DNA from: a virus
Lineage: Duplodnaviria; Heunggongvirae; Uroviricota; Caudoviricetes
Length of the DNA: 7,944 nucleotides
Direction: 5' to 3' (one strand)
IMG/VR virus record: IMGVR_UViG_2585427761_000003
Span: 1 to 7,944 of that record
Shown here: positions 434 through 7,944 of the stretch, piece after piece
Layout: every line of letters begins with the position of its first letter
How positions within the stretch are numbered: the stretch's first letter is position 1
Translations under genes and position numbers: made by a program
The notes under the pieces: model-generated
What the model was told of the DNA's origin: nothing
The model's input: the letters and a program-made list of their open reading frames with translations, nothing else
Databases searched by the model: none

Positions 434-823
434 TTATTTTTGTCGTGTTATTGGGTCGACGTATTCTGAGTAAAATTCGGTCAGTTTTTGGAGTCGCATT
501 TGAAAAGCTGCCAGCATATTTCTACGTTCTACAGGTGGCAGGTTTCTGTAAACATCAAGCAGGGCCTTCTCGTCATCATCAAGCGCCTCTCTATTTGTCT
601 CTTCTTTCCCTGTCAGTAGCCAAGAAAGGGAAACGTTTGTGGCTTCTGCAATTTTGGCTGCGGAATCTTTACTGATTGTTCCTCTTTTTTTCCATGCGTT
701 GACTGATGAACGACCTACACCAGCGATACGCGCTAAATCTGAACCACTTAAATGATGCTGTTGAGAGATCGTATCTAACCTTTCTGCTAGCGGGGTGTCG
801 TATTGCTTTTTTCTCATGTCCAT
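434..823 (-). CDS. XRE-family helix-turn-helix phage repressor (CI functional analogue), 129 aa, no peptidase domain
   Basis: ORF-track ORF 434..823. HTH signature LSGSDLARIAGVGRSSVNAWKKRG near the N-terminus. Divergent from the Cro-like gene. Only 129 aa, so no room for an S24 (LexA-like) autocleavage domain. The -10 TATAAT (835-830) ends 6 nt before the ATG (823-821), suggesting a leaderless mRNA. Confidence 0.85.
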   Translation of the reverse strand: MDMRKKQYDTPLAERLDTISQQHHLSGSDLARIAGVGRSSVNAWKKRGTISKDSAAKIAEATNVSLSWLLTGKEETNREALDDDEKALLDVYRNLPPVERRNMLAAFQMRLQKLTEFYSEYVDPITRQK

Positions 824-1611: not shown

Positions 1612-1682
1612 CTGACAATAGCCATATCGAATCGCTTCCGGCAACTCGTGAGTAAAATGATTCGGTATCAGAAGAGGTGAGT

Positions 1683-2753
1683 ATGGCTAACGCCTGGCTC
1701 AGATTATGGCATGACATGCCAAATGACCCTAAGTGGCGAACAATTGCCAGGGTGTCAGGGCAGCCAATTGCAACAGTGATGGCAGTGTATATCCACCTCC
1801 TGGTGAGCGCGTCACGAAATGTCACGCGAGGTCACATTGATGTCACGACAGAAGATTTGGCAAGTGCGCTCGACGTGACAGAAGAGGTAATTGATTCAAT
1901 TTTGCAGACGATGCAGGGGCGGGTACTTGATGGTGATTTAATCACTGGATGGGAAAAACGCCAGGTGCTGAAAGAGGACAACGGCAATATTTCGCAAACC
2001 GCAAAATCTCCTGCAGAGCGCAAGAGGGCGCAGCGAGAGAGGGAAAGAAAGCGGGAACAAAATGGCGATTGTCACGGCGCGTCACGAAATGTCACGCACA
2101 TGTCACGACGAGTCACGACAGATAAAGATACAGATAAAGATACAGATCAAGAAGATCAAAACACTATGGTCCATGGCGTAAAAAACGCCACGAACCAGGC
2201 AGGGGATGTTCAGACCGTCAATCCTGGTCAGCCAGCAGGCACGACACCGGAAGCCGATTCAGCGTATGCGCTGAAAGCCGATTCGGGCGCTGTGCAGCAG
2301 GTGATGACCGCAAGGCCGGAGCAATCACACCAACTGCAGCAGCCTGAAGCCGATTCCGCCATTCAGCGGGAAGCCGATCGGGTAGTCCCGGAAAGCACCG
2401 GGCAGTCTGTGGGACGAGTGGATTATCCGGATGTGTTCGAACAGGTCTGGCGGGAATACCCGTTGCGTGCCGGGGCAAACCCGAAGAAATCCGCTTTCAG
2501 TGCCTGGAAGGCCAGATTGCGCGAGGGGGTGCCACCAGAGACCATGCTGGATGGTGTGAGGCGTTACGCGAGATACCTGGCGGCGACCGGGAAAGCGGGA
2601 ACGGAATTTGTTCAGCGAGCGACGACGTTTTTTGGGCCGGACCGGAATTTTGAAAACCCCTGGTTGCTCCCGGTAAGCGGCACGAACAACCAGCGTTGTG
2701 TGAATCATATTTCTGAACCGGATACCGAAATTCCGCCGGGATTCAGGGGGTGA
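1683..2753 (+). CDS. phage replication initiation protein (lambda O functional analogue; YdaU-like) containing the putative origin iterons
   Basis: ORF-track ORF 1677..2753 begins at GTG 1677; ATG 1683 with SD AAGAGG (1672-1677) is the more likely start. Immediately precedes the DnaC-like gene with 6-nt spacing. Gene body holds two iteron arrays (see repeat features). The assignment rests on gene order, iterons and a recalled resemblance of the C-terminal region (YPDVFEQVWREYP...FFGPDRNFENPW) to YdaU-type replication proteins. Confidence 0.7.
   Translation: MANAWLRLWHDMPNDPKWRTIARVSGQPIATVMAVYIHLLVSASRNVTRGHIDVTTEDLASALDVTEEVIDSILQTMQGRVLDGDLITGWEKRQVLKEDNGNISQTAKSPAERKRAQRERERKREQNGDCHGASRNVTHMSRRVTTDKDTDKDTDQEDQNTMVHGVKNATNQAGDVQTVNPGQPAGTTPEADSAYALKADSGAVQQVMTARPEQSHQLQQPEADSAIQREADRVVPESTGQSVGRVDYPDVFEQVWREYPLRAGANPKKSAFSAWKARLREGVPPETMLDGVRRYARYLAATGKAGTEFVQRATTFFGPDRNFENPWLLPVSGTNNQRCVNHISEPDTEIPPGFRG
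1807..1879 (+). repeat. iteron array 1: four direct GTCAC(G/A) repeats at about 10-bp phasing plus one inverted copy
   Basis: GTCACG at 1811, 1821 and 1842; GTCACA at 1831 (spacing 10, 10, 11 bp); inverted CGTGAC at 1874-1879. The 21-mer GCGCGTCACGAAATGTCACGC (1807-1827) recurs exactly at 2077-2097. Confidence 0.65.
2071..2160 (+). repeat. iteron array 2 (five direct GTCACG repeats) followed by an A+T-rich tandem repeat; candidate origin core
   Basis: GTCACG at 2071, 2081, 2091, 2102, 2112 (spacing 10, 10, 11, 10 bp). Directly followed by GATAAAGATACA x2 and GATCAAGAA/GATCAAAAC (2121-2160), which is A+T-rich, holds two GATC sites and encodes DKDTDKDTDQEDQ. Confidence 0.6.
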
Positions 2754-2759
2754 TGTGGC

Positions 2760-3506
2760 ATGAAAAACATTGCGGCAGCCGGGGTTCTTGAACGTATTCG
2801 CAGACTTGCACCACAGGCGTCGGTTCCACCGTACCGGACGGTGGAGGAGTGGCGGGAATGGCAACTTGCTGAAGGACGAAAACGCAGCGAGGAGATTAAC
2901 CGCCAGAATCACCAGTTGCGGGTGGAAAAAATCCTGAATCGTTCGGGCATCCAGCCTCTGCACAGCAAATGCTCGTTTGCGAATTATCAGGTGCAGAACG
3001 ACGGGCAAAAATACGCGCTGAGCCAGGCCAAATCCATAGCTGACGAACTGATGACCGGGTGCACGAATTTTGTGTTCAGCGGTAAGCCGGGTACCGGAAA
3101 GAATCATCTGGCAGCAGCCATTGGCAACCATCTTCTGGCGAAAGGTCGCAGCGTGATTGTGGTGACGGTGGCGGATGTGATGCTGGCGTTACACGGCAAC
3201 TACGACAACAAAAACTCGGGCGAAAAGTTTTTGCAGGGGTTGTGTGAAGTTGACCTGCTTATCCTGGATGAAATCGGTATGCAGCGGGATACGCGTAACG
3301 AACAGGTCACACTGAACCAGATAGTCGATCGCAGAACGGCCTCGATGCACAGCGTCGGGATGCTGACGAACCTGAACCATGCGGCGATGAATACGCTGCT
3401 TGGTGAGCGCGTGATGGACCGCATGACCATGAACGGTGGTCGCTGGGTGAATTTTAACTGGGAGAGCTGGCGTTCAAATGTCAGTCATTTAAGGGTTGCG
3501 AAGTAA
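2760..3506 (+). CDS. DnaC-like replicative helicase loader (phage P/YdaV analogue), AAA+ ATPase
   Basis: ORF-track ORF. Walker A FSGKPGTGKNHLAAAIG, Walker B DLLILDEIG, and long stretches matching E. coli DnaC as I recall it (NRSGIQPLH, NQIVDRR, GMLTN, LLGERVMDRM, NFNWESWRS). Starts 6 nt after the initiator stop. Confidence 0.95.
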   Translation: MKNIAAAGVLERIRRLAPQASVPPYRTVEEWREWQLAEGRKRSEEINRQNHQLRVEKILNRSGIQPLHSKCSFANYQVQNDGQKYALSQAKSIADELMTGCTNFVFSGKPGTGKNHLAAAIGNHLLAKGRSVIVVTVADVMLALHGNYDNKNSGEKFLQGLCEVDLLILDEIGMQRDTRNEQVTLNQIVDRRTASMHSVGMLTNLNHAAMNTLLGERVMDRMTMNGGRWVNFNWESWRSNVSHLRVAK

Positions 3507-5315: not shown

Positions 5316-5681
5316 ATGGCACTGACGAAAAAACAACGTGCAGAGCTGCGCATGAAGTTCGGCGGTCGCTGTGCTTATTGCGGCTGCGAACTTGGCGAAA
5401 AGTGGCATGCAGACCATGTAAAACCGGTCATTCGTTTTGATGGAAATATGCTTCACCAGGAACGTGACGATATATCCAATATGGTTCCGGCATGCCACCC
5501 ATGCAATCTGCACAAGCATTGCAGTAGTCTGGAAGATTATCGGCGAATTATCAGTGATGGTCGTCGTGAATTCCTTGCGTCCGGGAAAGGCAAAGCGCTG
5601 GTTCGTATGGGATTGGTTGAAATGAAATCTGACCCAGTTGTGTTCTGGTTTGAAAAATATCAAGAAGGGGCTACGGCATGA
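5316..5681 (+). CDS. HNH endonuclease (121 aa)
   Basis: ORF-track ORF 5226..5681 trimmed to ATG 5316, which has SD AAGGAAAG (5303-5310); the upstream extension is Cys/Trp-rich and unprotein-like. Classic HNH zinc-finger nuclease pattern: C-A-Y-C-G ... H-A-D-H-V-K-P ... [13 protein letters not shown]. Confidence 0.85.
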
Positions 5682-6227: not shown

Positions 6228-6527
6228 TTATAAGAAATCGGTTTCATAACTTTGCCCACCATGATAGATACCGACAATAAAGACTTTTCTGCTATCAACG
6301 GCAAAAGCAATAATCGTTCTGTGGCGGAAATGAGTTACCCGCATCCCCTGGCGAATATCATCGCGTTTATTGCCCCGATGCGGGAATGTAGAAAACCCAT
6401 CAAGATAATCAAGAAGCGCATTGGCATAATTGTCAGCAATGACGTTCCCTGCTTTCTCCGTTATATACCTGTGCAGGTTGATTATTTGTTGTTCGGCCTC
6501 AGGAGTAATGATGACTTCATATGTCAT
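6228..6527 (-). CDS. parE: ParE/RelE-superfamily type II toxin (99 aa)
   Basis: ORF-track ORF. Starts 5 nt after the stop of a ParD-like RHH antitoxin gene on the same strand. Size and sequence (MTYEVIITPEAEQQI...RVTHFRHRTIIAFAVDSRKVFIVGIYHGGQ) fit the ParE/RelE fold pattern. Confidence 0.85.
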   Translation of the reverse strand: MTYEVIITPEAEQQIINLHRYITEKAGNVIADNYANALLDYLDGFSTFPHRGNKRDDIRQGMRVTHFRHRTIIAFAVDSRKVFIVGIYHGGQSYETDFL

Positions 6528-6925: not shown

Positions 6926-7198
6926 ATGGCGCACAATACCAAACATCACAATTCTGATATCGCCCCTGCCAGCAGGCAAGGGCGGTGTTCTCACACATTC
7001 AAATATGACTGGTATCAGCACGATCCCTGCACTGAAGAACAGGCCGAATGGCTGATTCATAACTACCGCAGACGTGGGTATGAGTTTAAGAAAGCCCTTA
7101 GCCTCGACTACCGTCACTGGATAATCTACGTCAGGCTCCTTTATTCCGAACGCCCGCCGCGTCCGTCCCGCACATTCCAGCAACGCATCTGGAGGTAA
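6926..7198 (+). CDS. hypothetical protein (90 aa from ATG 6926; 108 aa if TTG 6872 is used)
   Basis: ORF-track ORF 6872..7198 begins at a TTG. ATG 6926 keeps the start outside the putative divergent promoter region. Rich in aromatic and basic residues, Cys/His at the N-terminus (CSHTFKYDWYQHDPC). Stop is 1 nt before the GTG start of the DUF968-like gene. No family recognised. Confidence 0.45.
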   Translation: MAHNTKHHNSDIAPASRQGRCSHTFKYDWYQHDPCTEEQAEWLIHNYRRRGYEFKKALSLDYRHWIIYVRLLYSERPPRPSRTFQQRIWR

Positions 7199-7199
7199 C

Positions 7200-7944
7200 G
7201 TGCGGGTATTACTTCGACCTGTTCTGGTACCGGAACTCGGGCTGGTGATCGTTAAGCCGGGCCGTGAATCCATGCCGGTATTCCACAATACCCGGGTACT
7301 GGTGGAGCCGGAACCGAAAAGCATGCGTAATCTGCCGTCCGGGGTTGTTCCTGCCGTTCGCCAGCCGCTAGTGGAAGACAAAACATTGCTGCCGTTTTTC
7401 AGTAACGCACGGGTGATTCGTGCTGCTGGTGGTGCTGGTGCATTGTCTGACTGGCTGTTGCGCCATATTAAATCCTGCCAGTGGCCACACGGCGATTATC
7501 ATCACAGCGAAACCGTCATTCACCGTTATGGTACCGGCGCAATGGTGTTGTGCTGGCACTGCGACAACCAGCTGCGCGACCAGACATCCGAATCACTCGG
7601 GCAGCTTGCTCAACAAAATCTGACAGCCTGGATGATTGACGTCATCGGTCACGCAATAAGCGGTACGCAGGAGCGTGAATTATCTCTGGCTGAATTATCC
7701 TGGTGGGCGGTCCGCAATCAGGTGGCGGACGCGCTACCGGAAGCGGTATTACGTCGTTCGCTGGGGTTGCGTGCGGAAAAAATCCGCTCAATGTACCGTG
7801 AAAGCGACATCGTGCCGGGAGAGCAGACCGCCACCAGCATACTGAAACAGCGCACAAAAAATCTTGCGCCGCTGCCTCACGCCCACCAGCAACAGAACCC
7901 ACCACAGGAAAAGACGGTGGTCAGCATTGCCGTTGATCCTGAGT
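7200..7944 (+). CDS. DUF968-like prophage protein, 3'-truncated by window edge; possible HNH-like Cys/His motif
   Basis: Not in the ORF track. Frame opens at GTG 7200 (the first possible start after the in-frame stop at 7122-7124), SD GGAGG (7191-7195), and I translated 248 codons to the window end without a stop. Begins VRVLLRPVLVPELGLVIVKPGRESMPVFHNT, which matches my recollection of DUF968 N-termini. Contains CQWPHGDYHHSETVIHRYGTGAMVLCWHCDN. The minus-strand ORFs listed here (6860..7381, 7368..7559, 7642..7905) have low-complexity translations and are treated as antisense artefacts. Confidence 0.7.
   Translation, partial: MRVLLRPVLVPELGLVIVKPGRESMPVFHNTRVLVEPEPKSMRNLPSGVVPAVRQPLVEDKTLLPFFSNARVIRAAGGAGALSDWLLRHIKSCQWPHGDYHHSETVIHRYGTGAMVLCWHCDNQLRDQTSESLGQLAQQNLTAWMIDVIGHAISGTQERELSLAELSWWAVRNQVADALPEAVLRRSLGLRAEKIRSMYRESDIVPGEQTATSILKQRTKNLAPLPHAHQQQNPPQEKTVVSIAVDPE

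What the first reader, a model, noticed from the sequence alone, without database searches (positions are those of the whole stretch)
7200..7944. DUF968-like gene missed by the ORF track, with an HNH-like Cys/His motif
A 248-codon open frame with a GTG start and good SD runs off the window on the plus strand; the ORF track instead shows only low-complexity antisense ORFs. The visible part contains C-x4-H-x3-H-H ... C-W-H-C-D-N, reminiscent of an HNH/zinc-finger nuclease core, which would hint at a nuclease function for a family generally annotated as unknown.
Basis: partly seen in the sequence, partly recalled or inferred. Interest (0 to 1): 0.45.

Follow-up and report, generated by a model that had tools for sequence, protein, structure and literature searches.

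The report
YdfU prophage nuclease gene, truncated

Summary
A GTG-initiated frame stays open for 248 codons from 7200 to the window end, behind GGAGG. It is 89% identical to E. coli K-12 YdfU (Qin prophage). RefSeq annotates it with the same start as "DUF968 domain-containing protein". Matches occur in 4548 of 5426 complete E. coli genomes. It was "missed" only because ORF listings drop frames that run off the end.

The nuclease idea is not new. DUF968 is already placed in the His-Me (HNH) superfamily with YbcO/DUF1364, and PHROGs calls it "HNH endonuclease". That assignment rests on a canonical HNH core at residues ~274-318, outside the window.

In 35 diverse homologues C93 (34/35), Q94 and C118 are conserved, and positions 101 and 121 are always His or Cys (one Asn at 101). 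That is a four-ligand zinc pattern. H97, H102 and H120 vary.

Verdict: a known gene; the N-terminal module is probably a degenerate, zinc-stabilised HNH-like domain. Low interest.

The parts
7191..7195 (+). Shine-Dalgarno GGAGG, 4 nt upstream of the GTG start
   Evidence: Read directly from the sequence.
7200..7944 (+). 5' part (248 of ~348-349 codons) of a YdfU/DUF968 gene; the frame runs off the window end
   Evidence: Open frame. 89% identical to K-12 YdfU, E = 6e-165. Same start as the RefSeq CDS WP_001265113.1. phrog_96 E = 5.8e-73 for residues 1-160.
7200..7376 (+). Residues 1-59: beta-rich N-terminal sub-domain (strands 2-4, 7-10, 15-18, 48-50); G48 is invariant
   Evidence: AlphaFold model, pLDDT 84-94 over these blocks; alignment A1. 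No Pfam or NCBIfam family matches.
7377..7664 (+). Residues ~60-155: unannotated N-terminal zinc module with a predicted HNH-like (treble-clef, beta-beta-alpha) fold
7476..7568 (+). Proposed zinc ligands are C93 (7476-7478), H101 (7500-7502), C118 (7551-7553) and C121 (7560-7562). D122-N123 sit on the helix.
   Evidence: Counts in 35 homologues: C93 34, Q94 35, position 101 H24/C10, C118 35, position 121 H21/C14, D122 31, N123 26; H97 7, H102 16, H120 21.
7512..7574 (+). Predicted beta-hairpin (105-110, 113-118) plus helix (119-125) of the N-module
   Evidence: DSSP on both models; mapping of residues onto the secondary structure.
7677..7944 (+). Residues 160-248: start of the Pfam DUF968 (PF06147) match. 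It comprises a helical middle region (ELSWWA motif), a low-confidence Q/P-rich linker and the VDPE motif that precedes the off-window HNH domain.
   Evidence: Pfam match to residues 160-248, profile positions 1-73 of 171. In the full-length orthologue the match is 160-345, 257.5 bits. pLDDT below 50 at residues 230-235.
6926..7198 (+). Upstream 90-codon ORF (phrog_1212, function unknown) whose TAA ends 1 nt before the DUF968 GTG; a likely co-translated partner
   Evidence: PGAP CDS WP_001342259.1 at the same place in L002. phrog_1212 E = 1.1e-35. No Pfam hit. Not similar to K-12 Rem.

Best explanation
Window 7200-7944 is the first ~71% of a lambdoid-prophage gene of the YdfU/DUF968 family.

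The complete protein (about 348 aa in the nearest relatives) has three parts:
1. An N-terminal region (residues 1-155) that is not in Pfam. Its core (~60-155) is a zinc-stabilised treble-clef/beta-beta-alpha module with the shape of an HNH domain. The zinc is held by C93, H/C101, C118 and C/H121.
2. A helical middle region and a flexible linker.
3. A canonical C-terminal HNH (His-Me finger) domain related to YbcO/DUF1364 and P1 Ref. This domain lies beyond the window end.

Mechanism proposed (inferred, not shown): the C-terminal HNH performs metal-dependent DNA cleavage. The N-terminal module has lost the general-base histidine in most members, so it acts as a non-catalytic, zinc-dependent DNA-binding or substrate-positioning domain (a 'pseudo-HNH'). 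The protein works on recombination or replication intermediates in the phage nin-like region, together with the neighbouring RusA Holliday-junction resolvase. It fills the slot that YbcN (Orf) and YbcO fill in DLP12.
For: Identity of the gene:
- 89% identical to K-12 YdfU.
- 98.7% nucleotide identity to RefSeq 'DUF968 domain-containing protein' genes.
- Pfam DUF968 at 257.5 bits and phrog_96 'HNH endonuclease' at E = 8e-175 for the full-length orthologue.

C-terminal HNH:
- The sequence CACCGKPADDPHHLIGH...LCREHHNELH is present in the orthologue.
- hhalign against a YbcO/DUF1364 profile gives Prob 96%, E = 4.4e-9.
- Catalytic His residues are conserved in 18-19/22 members and D303 in 22/22.
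- Published placement in His-Me finger group 7 (PMC5714182).

N-module as a zinc site:
- C93 34/35, Q94 35/35, C118 35/35.
- Positions 101 and 121 alternate only between His and Cys (one Asn at 101).
- The same C/H alternation is seen at the fourth zinc ligand of the C-terminal HNH (C14/H6).

N-module as an HNH-like fold:
- The confident model shows beta-beta-alpha.

N-module as non-catalytic:
- No hairpin position has His in more than 7/35 members.
- The criterion of a conserved His on the primary hairpin comes from PMC4999995.

Context:
- RusA is directly adjacent in L001 and L002, and in distant members P0223 and P0237.
- The slot is the same as ybcN-ninE-ybcO-rusA-Q in DLP12.
Against: - Foldseek against the PDB found nothing significant (best E = 3; ScoMcrA E = 4).
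- Profile-profile and HMM comparisons show no sequence relationship of the N-module to YbcO (E = 0.11), to its own C-terminal HNH (E = 0.16), to any Pfam family or to any PDB sequence.
- Zinc binding is inferred from conservation only.
- The window's own protein does carry His at 102 and 108 plus D122/N123, so activity of the N-module in the E. coli clade is not excluded.
- No biochemical data exist for any YdfU-type protein in the searched literature.
- K-12 lacks rusA next to ydfU, and P0177 has no adjacent RusA.
- The C-terminal HNH cannot be verified for this particular copy because the window ends first.
Confidence: 0.62

Rival explanations
1. The N-terminal Cys/His module is a second, catalytically competent His-Me finger active site, at least in the E. 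coli clade. YdfU would then have two nuclease centres, for example for paired incisions on branched DNA. This is essentially the first reader's reading.
For: - The fold is HNH-like.
- D122 (31/35) and N123 (26/35) occupy the helix positions that hold H314 and N315 in the C-terminal HNH.
- The window protein and its close relatives have His at 108, at the end of beta1, and at 102.
- A subgroup (P0196, P0236, P0255) has lost the C-terminal catalytic residues but keeps the N-module intact. This shows that the N-module is under selection on its own.
Against: - No His on or next to the hairpin is conserved across the family: position 108 is His in 5/35, position 110 in 7/35 and position 102 in 16/35.
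- H101 is exchangeable with Cys, which fits a zinc ligand and not a general base.
- The beta1-beta2 loop is a 2-residue turn, so the usual loop carrying the middle Asn is missing.
- There is no sequence-profile similarity to any His-Me family.
Confidence: 0.1
2. [not shown]
For: - No significant sequence or profile similarity to HNH families.
- The best (non-significant) PDB sequence hit is the RPA12 zinc ribbon, E = 0.97.
- Foldseek is negative.
- Treble-clef families are known not to be monophyletic (PMC4999995).
Against: - The helix motif C-x2-[C/H]-D-N-x-L-R runs in register with C-x2-[C/H]-H-N-x-L-H of the protein's own HNH.
- The first knuckle C-Q-x6-[C/H] has the same spacing and the same Gln as YbcO's C-Q-x6-C.
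- A helix containing a conserved Trp precedes the knuckle in both modules.
Confidence: 0.2
3. The frame is a decaying remnant in a cryptic prophage, with no current function in this genome.
For: - K-12 YdfU sits in the defective Qin prophage and is listed as uncharacterised.
- Many database entries for this family are truncated or chimeric.
- The window ends before the catalytic domain, so intactness is unknown.
Against: - There are 248 codons without a stop or frameshift.
- The same start and length are kept across thousands of genomes.
- Homologues down to 25-30% identity keep the domain order, the zinc ligands and the RusA linkage in apparently complete phage modules.
- The window's replication and immunity genes appear intact.
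Confidence: 0.08

Closest known systems
E. coli K-12 YdfU (b1560, Qin prophage); Pfam PF06147 DUF968; His-Me finger group 7 of Jablonska et al. 2017
   Same: 89% identical over all 248 visible residues, with the same start. Pfam DUF968 is above its cut-off. It has the same position before a Q-type antiterminator, and in most relatives it is next to RusA.
   Different: Nothing material; this is an orthologue. There is a 3-nt indel in the Q-rich linker relative to the nearest RefSeq copy. The window stops ~100 codons before the end.
YbcO / DUF1364 (PDB 3g27), DLP12 prophage predicted nuclease
   Different: YbcO is a 96-aa single domain with a conserved hairpin His (consensus; PMC4999995). The N-module has no conserved hairpin His, has a 2-residue turn instead of the long beta1-beta2 loop, and shows no significant profile similarity (E = 0.11).
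Bacteriophage P1 Ref (PDB 3plw), RecA-dependent HNH nuclease (Pfam PF16786)
   Different: The Pfam RecA_dep_nuc match is only E = 0.38. Ref has a disordered N-terminus instead of the ~250-residue N-terminal and middle regions. RecA dependence of YdfU is untested.
Lambda Orf / NinB family and Orf-HNH fusions (Curtis et al. 2014, PMC4118853)
   Same: That paper describes DUF968 proteins of Gram-positive phages as an Orf-like DNA-binding domain fused to a zinc-finger HNH. The general logic of a DNA-binding module plus an HNH in the nin/recombination region applies here too.

Membership tests
DUF968 (PF06147) / YdfU | Match to the Pfam HMM above the gathering score | tested here: met
   Window part: 56.7 bits against a cut-off of 27.8, residues 160-248. 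Full-length orthologue: 257.5 bits, residues 160-345.
DUF968 (PF06147) / YdfU | Orthology to the named member YdfU | tested here: met
   220/248 identical to K-12 YdfU, no gaps, E = 6e-165.
DUF968 (PF06147) / YdfU | C-terminal zinc-finger HNH core (CxxC...HH...CxxC/H-H...H) present in this copy | not testable with these tools
   The window ends at codon 248. The core is at ~274-318 in the 98.7%-identical RefSeq copy and is conserved in 18-19 of 22 full-length homologues.
His-Me finger (HNH / beta-beta-alpha-Me), applied to the N-terminal module (residues 60-155) | Beta-hairpin followed by an alpha-helix (beta-beta-alpha topology) | tested here: met
   b105-110, b113-118 and a119-125 in two independent AlphaFold runs, local pLDDT 92-97. 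This is a prediction, not an experiment.
His-Me finger (HNH / beta-beta-alpha-Me), applied to the N-terminal module (residues 60-155) | Structural similarity to solved His-Me finger domains | tested here: inconclusive
   [not shown]
His-Me finger (HNH / beta-beta-alpha-Me), applied to the N-terminal module (residues 60-155) | Conserved catalytic (general-base) His at the end of beta1 / on the primary hairpin | tested here: not met
   His frequency at positions 105-118 never exceeds 7/35, and H102 is His in 16/35. The control, the C-terminal HNH, has H287 and H288 in 19/22. The criterion is from PMC4999995.
His-Me finger (HNH / beta-beta-alpha-Me), applied to the N-terminal module (residues 60-155) | Metal-binding residue (His/Asn/Asp) on the alpha-helix right after the second zinc knuckle | tested here: inconclusive
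   D122 (31/35) and N123 (26/35) occupy the positions of H314/N315 of the C-terminal HNH. Whether they bind a catalytic metal is unknown.
His-Me finger (HNH / beta-beta-alpha-Me), applied to the N-terminal module (residues 60-155) | Detectable sequence or profile similarity to a recognised His-Me family | tested here: not met
   hhalign against DUF1364 gives E = 0.11 and against its own C-terminal HNH E = 0.16, while the positive control gives 4.4e-9. No HNH-type Pfam hit in any of the 33 members at E up to 10. No PDB sequence hit.
Treble-clef structural zinc finger, applied to the N-terminal module | Four conserved Cys/His ligands: a knuckle before the hairpin, and the hairpin end plus the first helix turn | tested here: met
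   C93 34/35; position 101 H24/C10; C118 35/35; position 121 H21/C14. Ligand geometry and actual zinc binding are not testable here.
Lambda Orf (NinB) family, applied to the middle region | Orf-like fold (PDB 1PC6) in the part N-terminal to the HNH | tested here: inconclusive
   [not shown]
P1 Ref-type RecA-dependent nuclease (PF16786) | HNH core structurally similar to Ref; nuclease activity dependent on RecA filaments | tested here: inconclusive
   [not shown]

The most novel reading that the evidence does not exclude
YdfU-type DUF968 proteins are tandem His-Me finger proteins. The unannotated N-terminal module would be an ancient, strongly diverged duplicate (or an acquired YbcO-like copy) of an HNH domain. 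In the E. coli clade it would retain a working active site (H108 or H102, D122, N123). The enzyme could then make two coordinated incisions on branched or D-loop DNA ahead of RusA. The subgroup with a dead C-terminal HNH would rely on the N-module alone.
Probability: 0.1. Interest if true: 0.45.

Novelty: already known. Interest (0 to 1): 0.22.

Why it matters
As a gene it does not matter much. It is a ubiquitous, already annotated prophage gene, and its family has been assigned to the HNH/His-Me nucleases since 2014-2017.

There are two modest points of value.

First, the case shows how a truncated window can mislead. The visible Cys/His cluster is not the motif that makes this family a nuclease.

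Second, the first ~155 residues of YdfU-type proteins are covered by no Pfam or NCBIfam model. Here they appear to be a zinc-binding module with an HNH-like fold that lacks the catalytic histidine. If confirmed, this would refine the domain annotation of a protein present in most E. coli genomes. It would also suggest how the enzyme recognises its DNA substrate. YdfU is still listed among the uncharacterised K-12 genes (PMC11551758).

Tried and rejected
1. Internal duplication. BLASTP of the N-motif against the C-terminal HNH gave only in-register but non-significant fragments (E = 2.1; E = 4.8). hhalign of the sub-alignments gave E = 0.16-0.27. Duplication is not demonstrable from sequence.

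2. Link of the N-module to YbcO/DUF1364. A single YbcO sequence against the profile gave E = 0.11 on an irrelevant stretch. A 77-sequence YbcO profile also gave E = 0.11, although the positive control worked.

3. Profile of the N-module against PDB sequences. Only chance-level hits were found (RPA12 zinc ribbon E = 0.97, squalene cyclase, aldolase).

4. Per-member Pfam scan of the N-module at E up to 10. No family was hit by more than one member.

5. The weak Glyco_hydro_42 and DUF2093 Pfam hits were rejected as noise, being below cut-off.

6. Foldseek against the PDB gave nothing significant.

7. NCBIfam has no model.

8. The upstream ORF as a Rem homologue: no similarity.

With the single protein it returned only close Escherichia/Shigella copies.

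10. Promoter and terminator scans around the gene were at shuffle level and were not used.

11. Zinc-ligand distances in the model could not be measured because coordinates are not exposed.

Full report
**1. What is in the sequence**

Window 7200-7943 is open for 248 codons on the + strand, starting with GTG. GGAGG lies at 7191-7195, 4 nt upstream. A 90-codon ORF (ATG 6926) ends with TAA at 7196-7198, one base before the GTG.

The mechanical ORF list shows only short or antisense frames here, because ORFs that run off an end are not listed. That is the whole reason the "ORF track" missed the gene.

It reads C93-Q-W-P-H97-G-D-Y-H101-H102 ... C118-W-H120-C121-D122-N123. The first spacing is x3, not x4.

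**2. Identity and context**

The window is the immunity/replication/nin-like region of a lambdoid prophage of E. coli. Its genes, in order:
- cI-like repressor (434-823, minus strand)
- YdaS and YdaT
- replication initiator (phrog_3729)
- DnaC/IstB-like loader
- DUF977, DUF4406 and DUF4014
- a stand-alone HNH gene
- a ParE/ParD pair on the minus strand
- the small ORF and the frame in question

The frame is 89% identical (220/248, no gaps) to K-12 YdfU of the Qin prophage. It is 98.7% identical at the DNA level to RefSeq genes annotated "DUF968 domain-containing protein", with the same GTG start and 348 codons. Similar DNA occurs in 4548 of 5426 complete E. coli genomes, with up to 9 copies per genome.

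In the closest phage and chromosome relatives the gene is followed by rusA and a Q-type antiterminator. Distant homologues (about 30% identity) also have rusA directly adjacent (P0223, P0237), though not always (P0177; K-12). In DLP12 the same slot holds ybcN (Orf family), ninE, ybcO, rusA and Q.

**3. What was already known**

Curtis et al. 2014 described DUF968 proteins as a DNA-binding domain fused to a zinc-finger HNH nuclease motif (PMC4118853).

Jablonska et al. 2017 placed DUF968 together with DUF1364/YbcO (PDB 3g27) in group 7 of the His-Me finger superfamily. They named YdfU, noted the RusA and Q neighbours, and proposed a recombination/repair nuclease role similar to NinG and Ref (PMC5714182).

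PHROGs labels the full-length family phrog_96 "HNH endonuclease" (E = 8e-175).

So nuclease function for this family is not a new hint. No experimental work on YdfU turned up, and it is still listed as uncharacterised in K-12 (PMC11551758).

**4. The catalytic motif is outside the window**

The full-length orthologue carries CACCGKPADDPHHLIGH...LCREHHNELH at residues ~274-318.

Four results support this as the active HNH:
- It is homologous to YbcO/DUF1364 (hhalign Prob 96%, E = 4.4e-9).
- In the AlphaFold model of a full-length orthologue (P0121, pLDDT 87.4) it forms b285-288, b306-309 and a311-319, with the HH pair at the end of beta1.
- Its catalytic residues are conserved in 18-19 of 22 full-length homologues.

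Pfam's DUF968 model covers residues 160-345 only.

**5.

Residues 1-160 match no Pfam or NCBIfam model and only function-unknown phrog_11007.

An exhaustive search of 1.84 billion representatives found a narrow family: 174 proteins at E <= 1e-3. Intact members always continue into the DUF968 C-terminus.

Conservation in 35 diverse sequences (25-92% identity):

| Position | Count (of 35) |
|---|---|
| C93 | 34 |
| Q94 | 35 |
| 101 | H 24, C 10, N 1 |
| C118 | 35 |
| 121 | H 21, C 14 |
| D122 | 31 |
| N123 | 26 |
| H97 | 7 |
| H102 | 16 |
| H120 | 21 |

His/Cys interchange at two positions, plus two (near-)invariant Cys, is the signature of a structural four-ligand zinc site and not of a general-base histidine. 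The fourth zinc ligand of the C-terminal HNH shows the same interchange (C14/H6).

**6. Fold of the N-terminal module**

The AlphaFold model of the window's 248 residues has pLDDT 85.6, and 92-97 across residues 61-150. It was built without templates and contains no C-terminal HNH. It shows:
- helix 79-89
- a loop (90-104) carrying C93 and H101
- a tight hairpin, b105-110 and b113-118, ending in C118
- helix 119-125 starting W-H-C121-D-N

Against this, four tests were negative:
- Foldseek found nothing significant.
- A profile of the module hit no HNH protein in PDB sequences.
- No member hit an HNH-type Pfam family.
- hhalign against YbcO and against the protein's own HNH gave E = 0.11 and 0.16.

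Motif-level correspondences exist but are leads, not proof:
- C-Q-x6-[H/C] against YbcO's C-Q-x6-C.
- C-x2-[C/H]-D-N-x-L-R against C-x2-[C/H]-H-N-x-L-H.
- A Trp-containing helix before the knuckle in both modules.

**7. Is the N-module catalytic?**

By structural register, the catalytic-His slot (the end of beta1) is residues 108-110, not H101/H102. Position 108 is His in 5/35 members, position 109 in 2/35 and position 110 in 7/35. Only 12/35 have any His there.

By the published criterion, a conserved His on the primary hairpin (PMC4999995), the module fails where the C-terminal domain passes.

D122 and N123 stand where the C-terminal HNH has its metal-binding H314 and N315, and R126 stands where it has H318.

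The most likely reading is a degenerate, zinc-stabilised HNH-like domain that binds or positions DNA (inferred).

The window's own protein does have H102, H108, D122 and N123. A subgroup (P0196, P0236, P0255) has lost the C-terminal catalytic residues while keeping the N-module. So residual or alternative activity cannot be excluded (about 10%).

**8. Mechanism proposed**

Shown:
- gene identity
- domain order
- conservation pattern
- predicted folds
- RusA linkage

Inferred:
- The C-terminal Ref/YbcO-like HNH cleaves DNA.
- The N-terminal module and the helical middle region supply substrate binding.
- The protein acts on recombination or replication intermediates of the phage alongside RusA.

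**9. Verdict**

- The motif region is HNH-shaped, and four of its Cys/His residues are conserved.
- Those four look like zinc ligands, and the His-His pair is not a conserved catalytic pair.
- The family's nuclease assignment is already known and depends on a motif beyond the window.

Noticed in passing
window 6228-6527 (-) and 6533-~6790 (-): A ParE toxin / ParD antitoxin pair sits just upstream of the small ORF and the DUF968 gene. In K-12 Qin the equivalent slot next to rem-ydfU holds relB-relE-hokD. Different toxin-antitoxin cassettes therefore occupy the same position in related prophages.
   Followed up: partly
window 5316-5681 (+): This is a second, unrelated stand-alone HNH endonuclease gene (Pfam PF01844, E = 3e-6). 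It matches only positions 161-275 of the 301-position phrog_2118 profile, so it may be an N-terminally short version.
   Followed up: partly
proteins P0196, P0236, P0255 (alignment A1): A subgroup of the family has lost the C-terminal HNH catalytic residues (HH becomes YQ, YL or FM; H314 becomes Y, Q or A). It keeps all zinc cysteines and the N-module motif. The converse is seen in P0209 and P0214, where the C-terminal zinc cysteines are lost and the catalytic His residues are kept.
   Followed up: partly
proteins P0132, P0136-P0138, P0140-P0143, P0154: About ten 50%-identity cluster representatives share the same N-terminal 115-250 residues of one YdfU lineage. They are joined at different break points to sequence that by eye does not belong to this family (Gly-rich and other repetitive stretches, possibly phage structural proteins; not checked). 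They are probably chimeric assemblies or gene-call artefacts.
   Followed up: no
L010 (Veillonella parvula MAG contig) and L013 (Leifsonia sp. 248-nt contig): Copies of this E. coli prophage gene, 89-96% identical, appear in records assigned to unrelated Gram-positive taxa. This is most likely contamination or mis-binning.
   Followed up: no
window 6926-7198 (+): A 90-codon ORF of unknown function (phrog_1212, no Pfam hit) has a stop codon 1 nt before the DUF968 GTG, which suggests translational coupling. It is not related to K-12 Rem, which occupies the corresponding position in Qin.
   Followed up: partly
window 1677-2753 (+): A 358-aa replication initiator has no Pfam hit at E <= 0.01 but a full-length match to phrog_3729 (E = 2.8e-256). 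It is followed by a DnaC/IstB-like loader at 2760-3506.
   Followed up: partly
window ~7885-7900 (residues 229-234): There is a 3-nt indel in the Gln/Pro-rich linker relative to the nearest RefSeq copy (QQQNPPQE against QQKPPQE). It falls in the only segment with pLDDT below 50.
   Followed up: no
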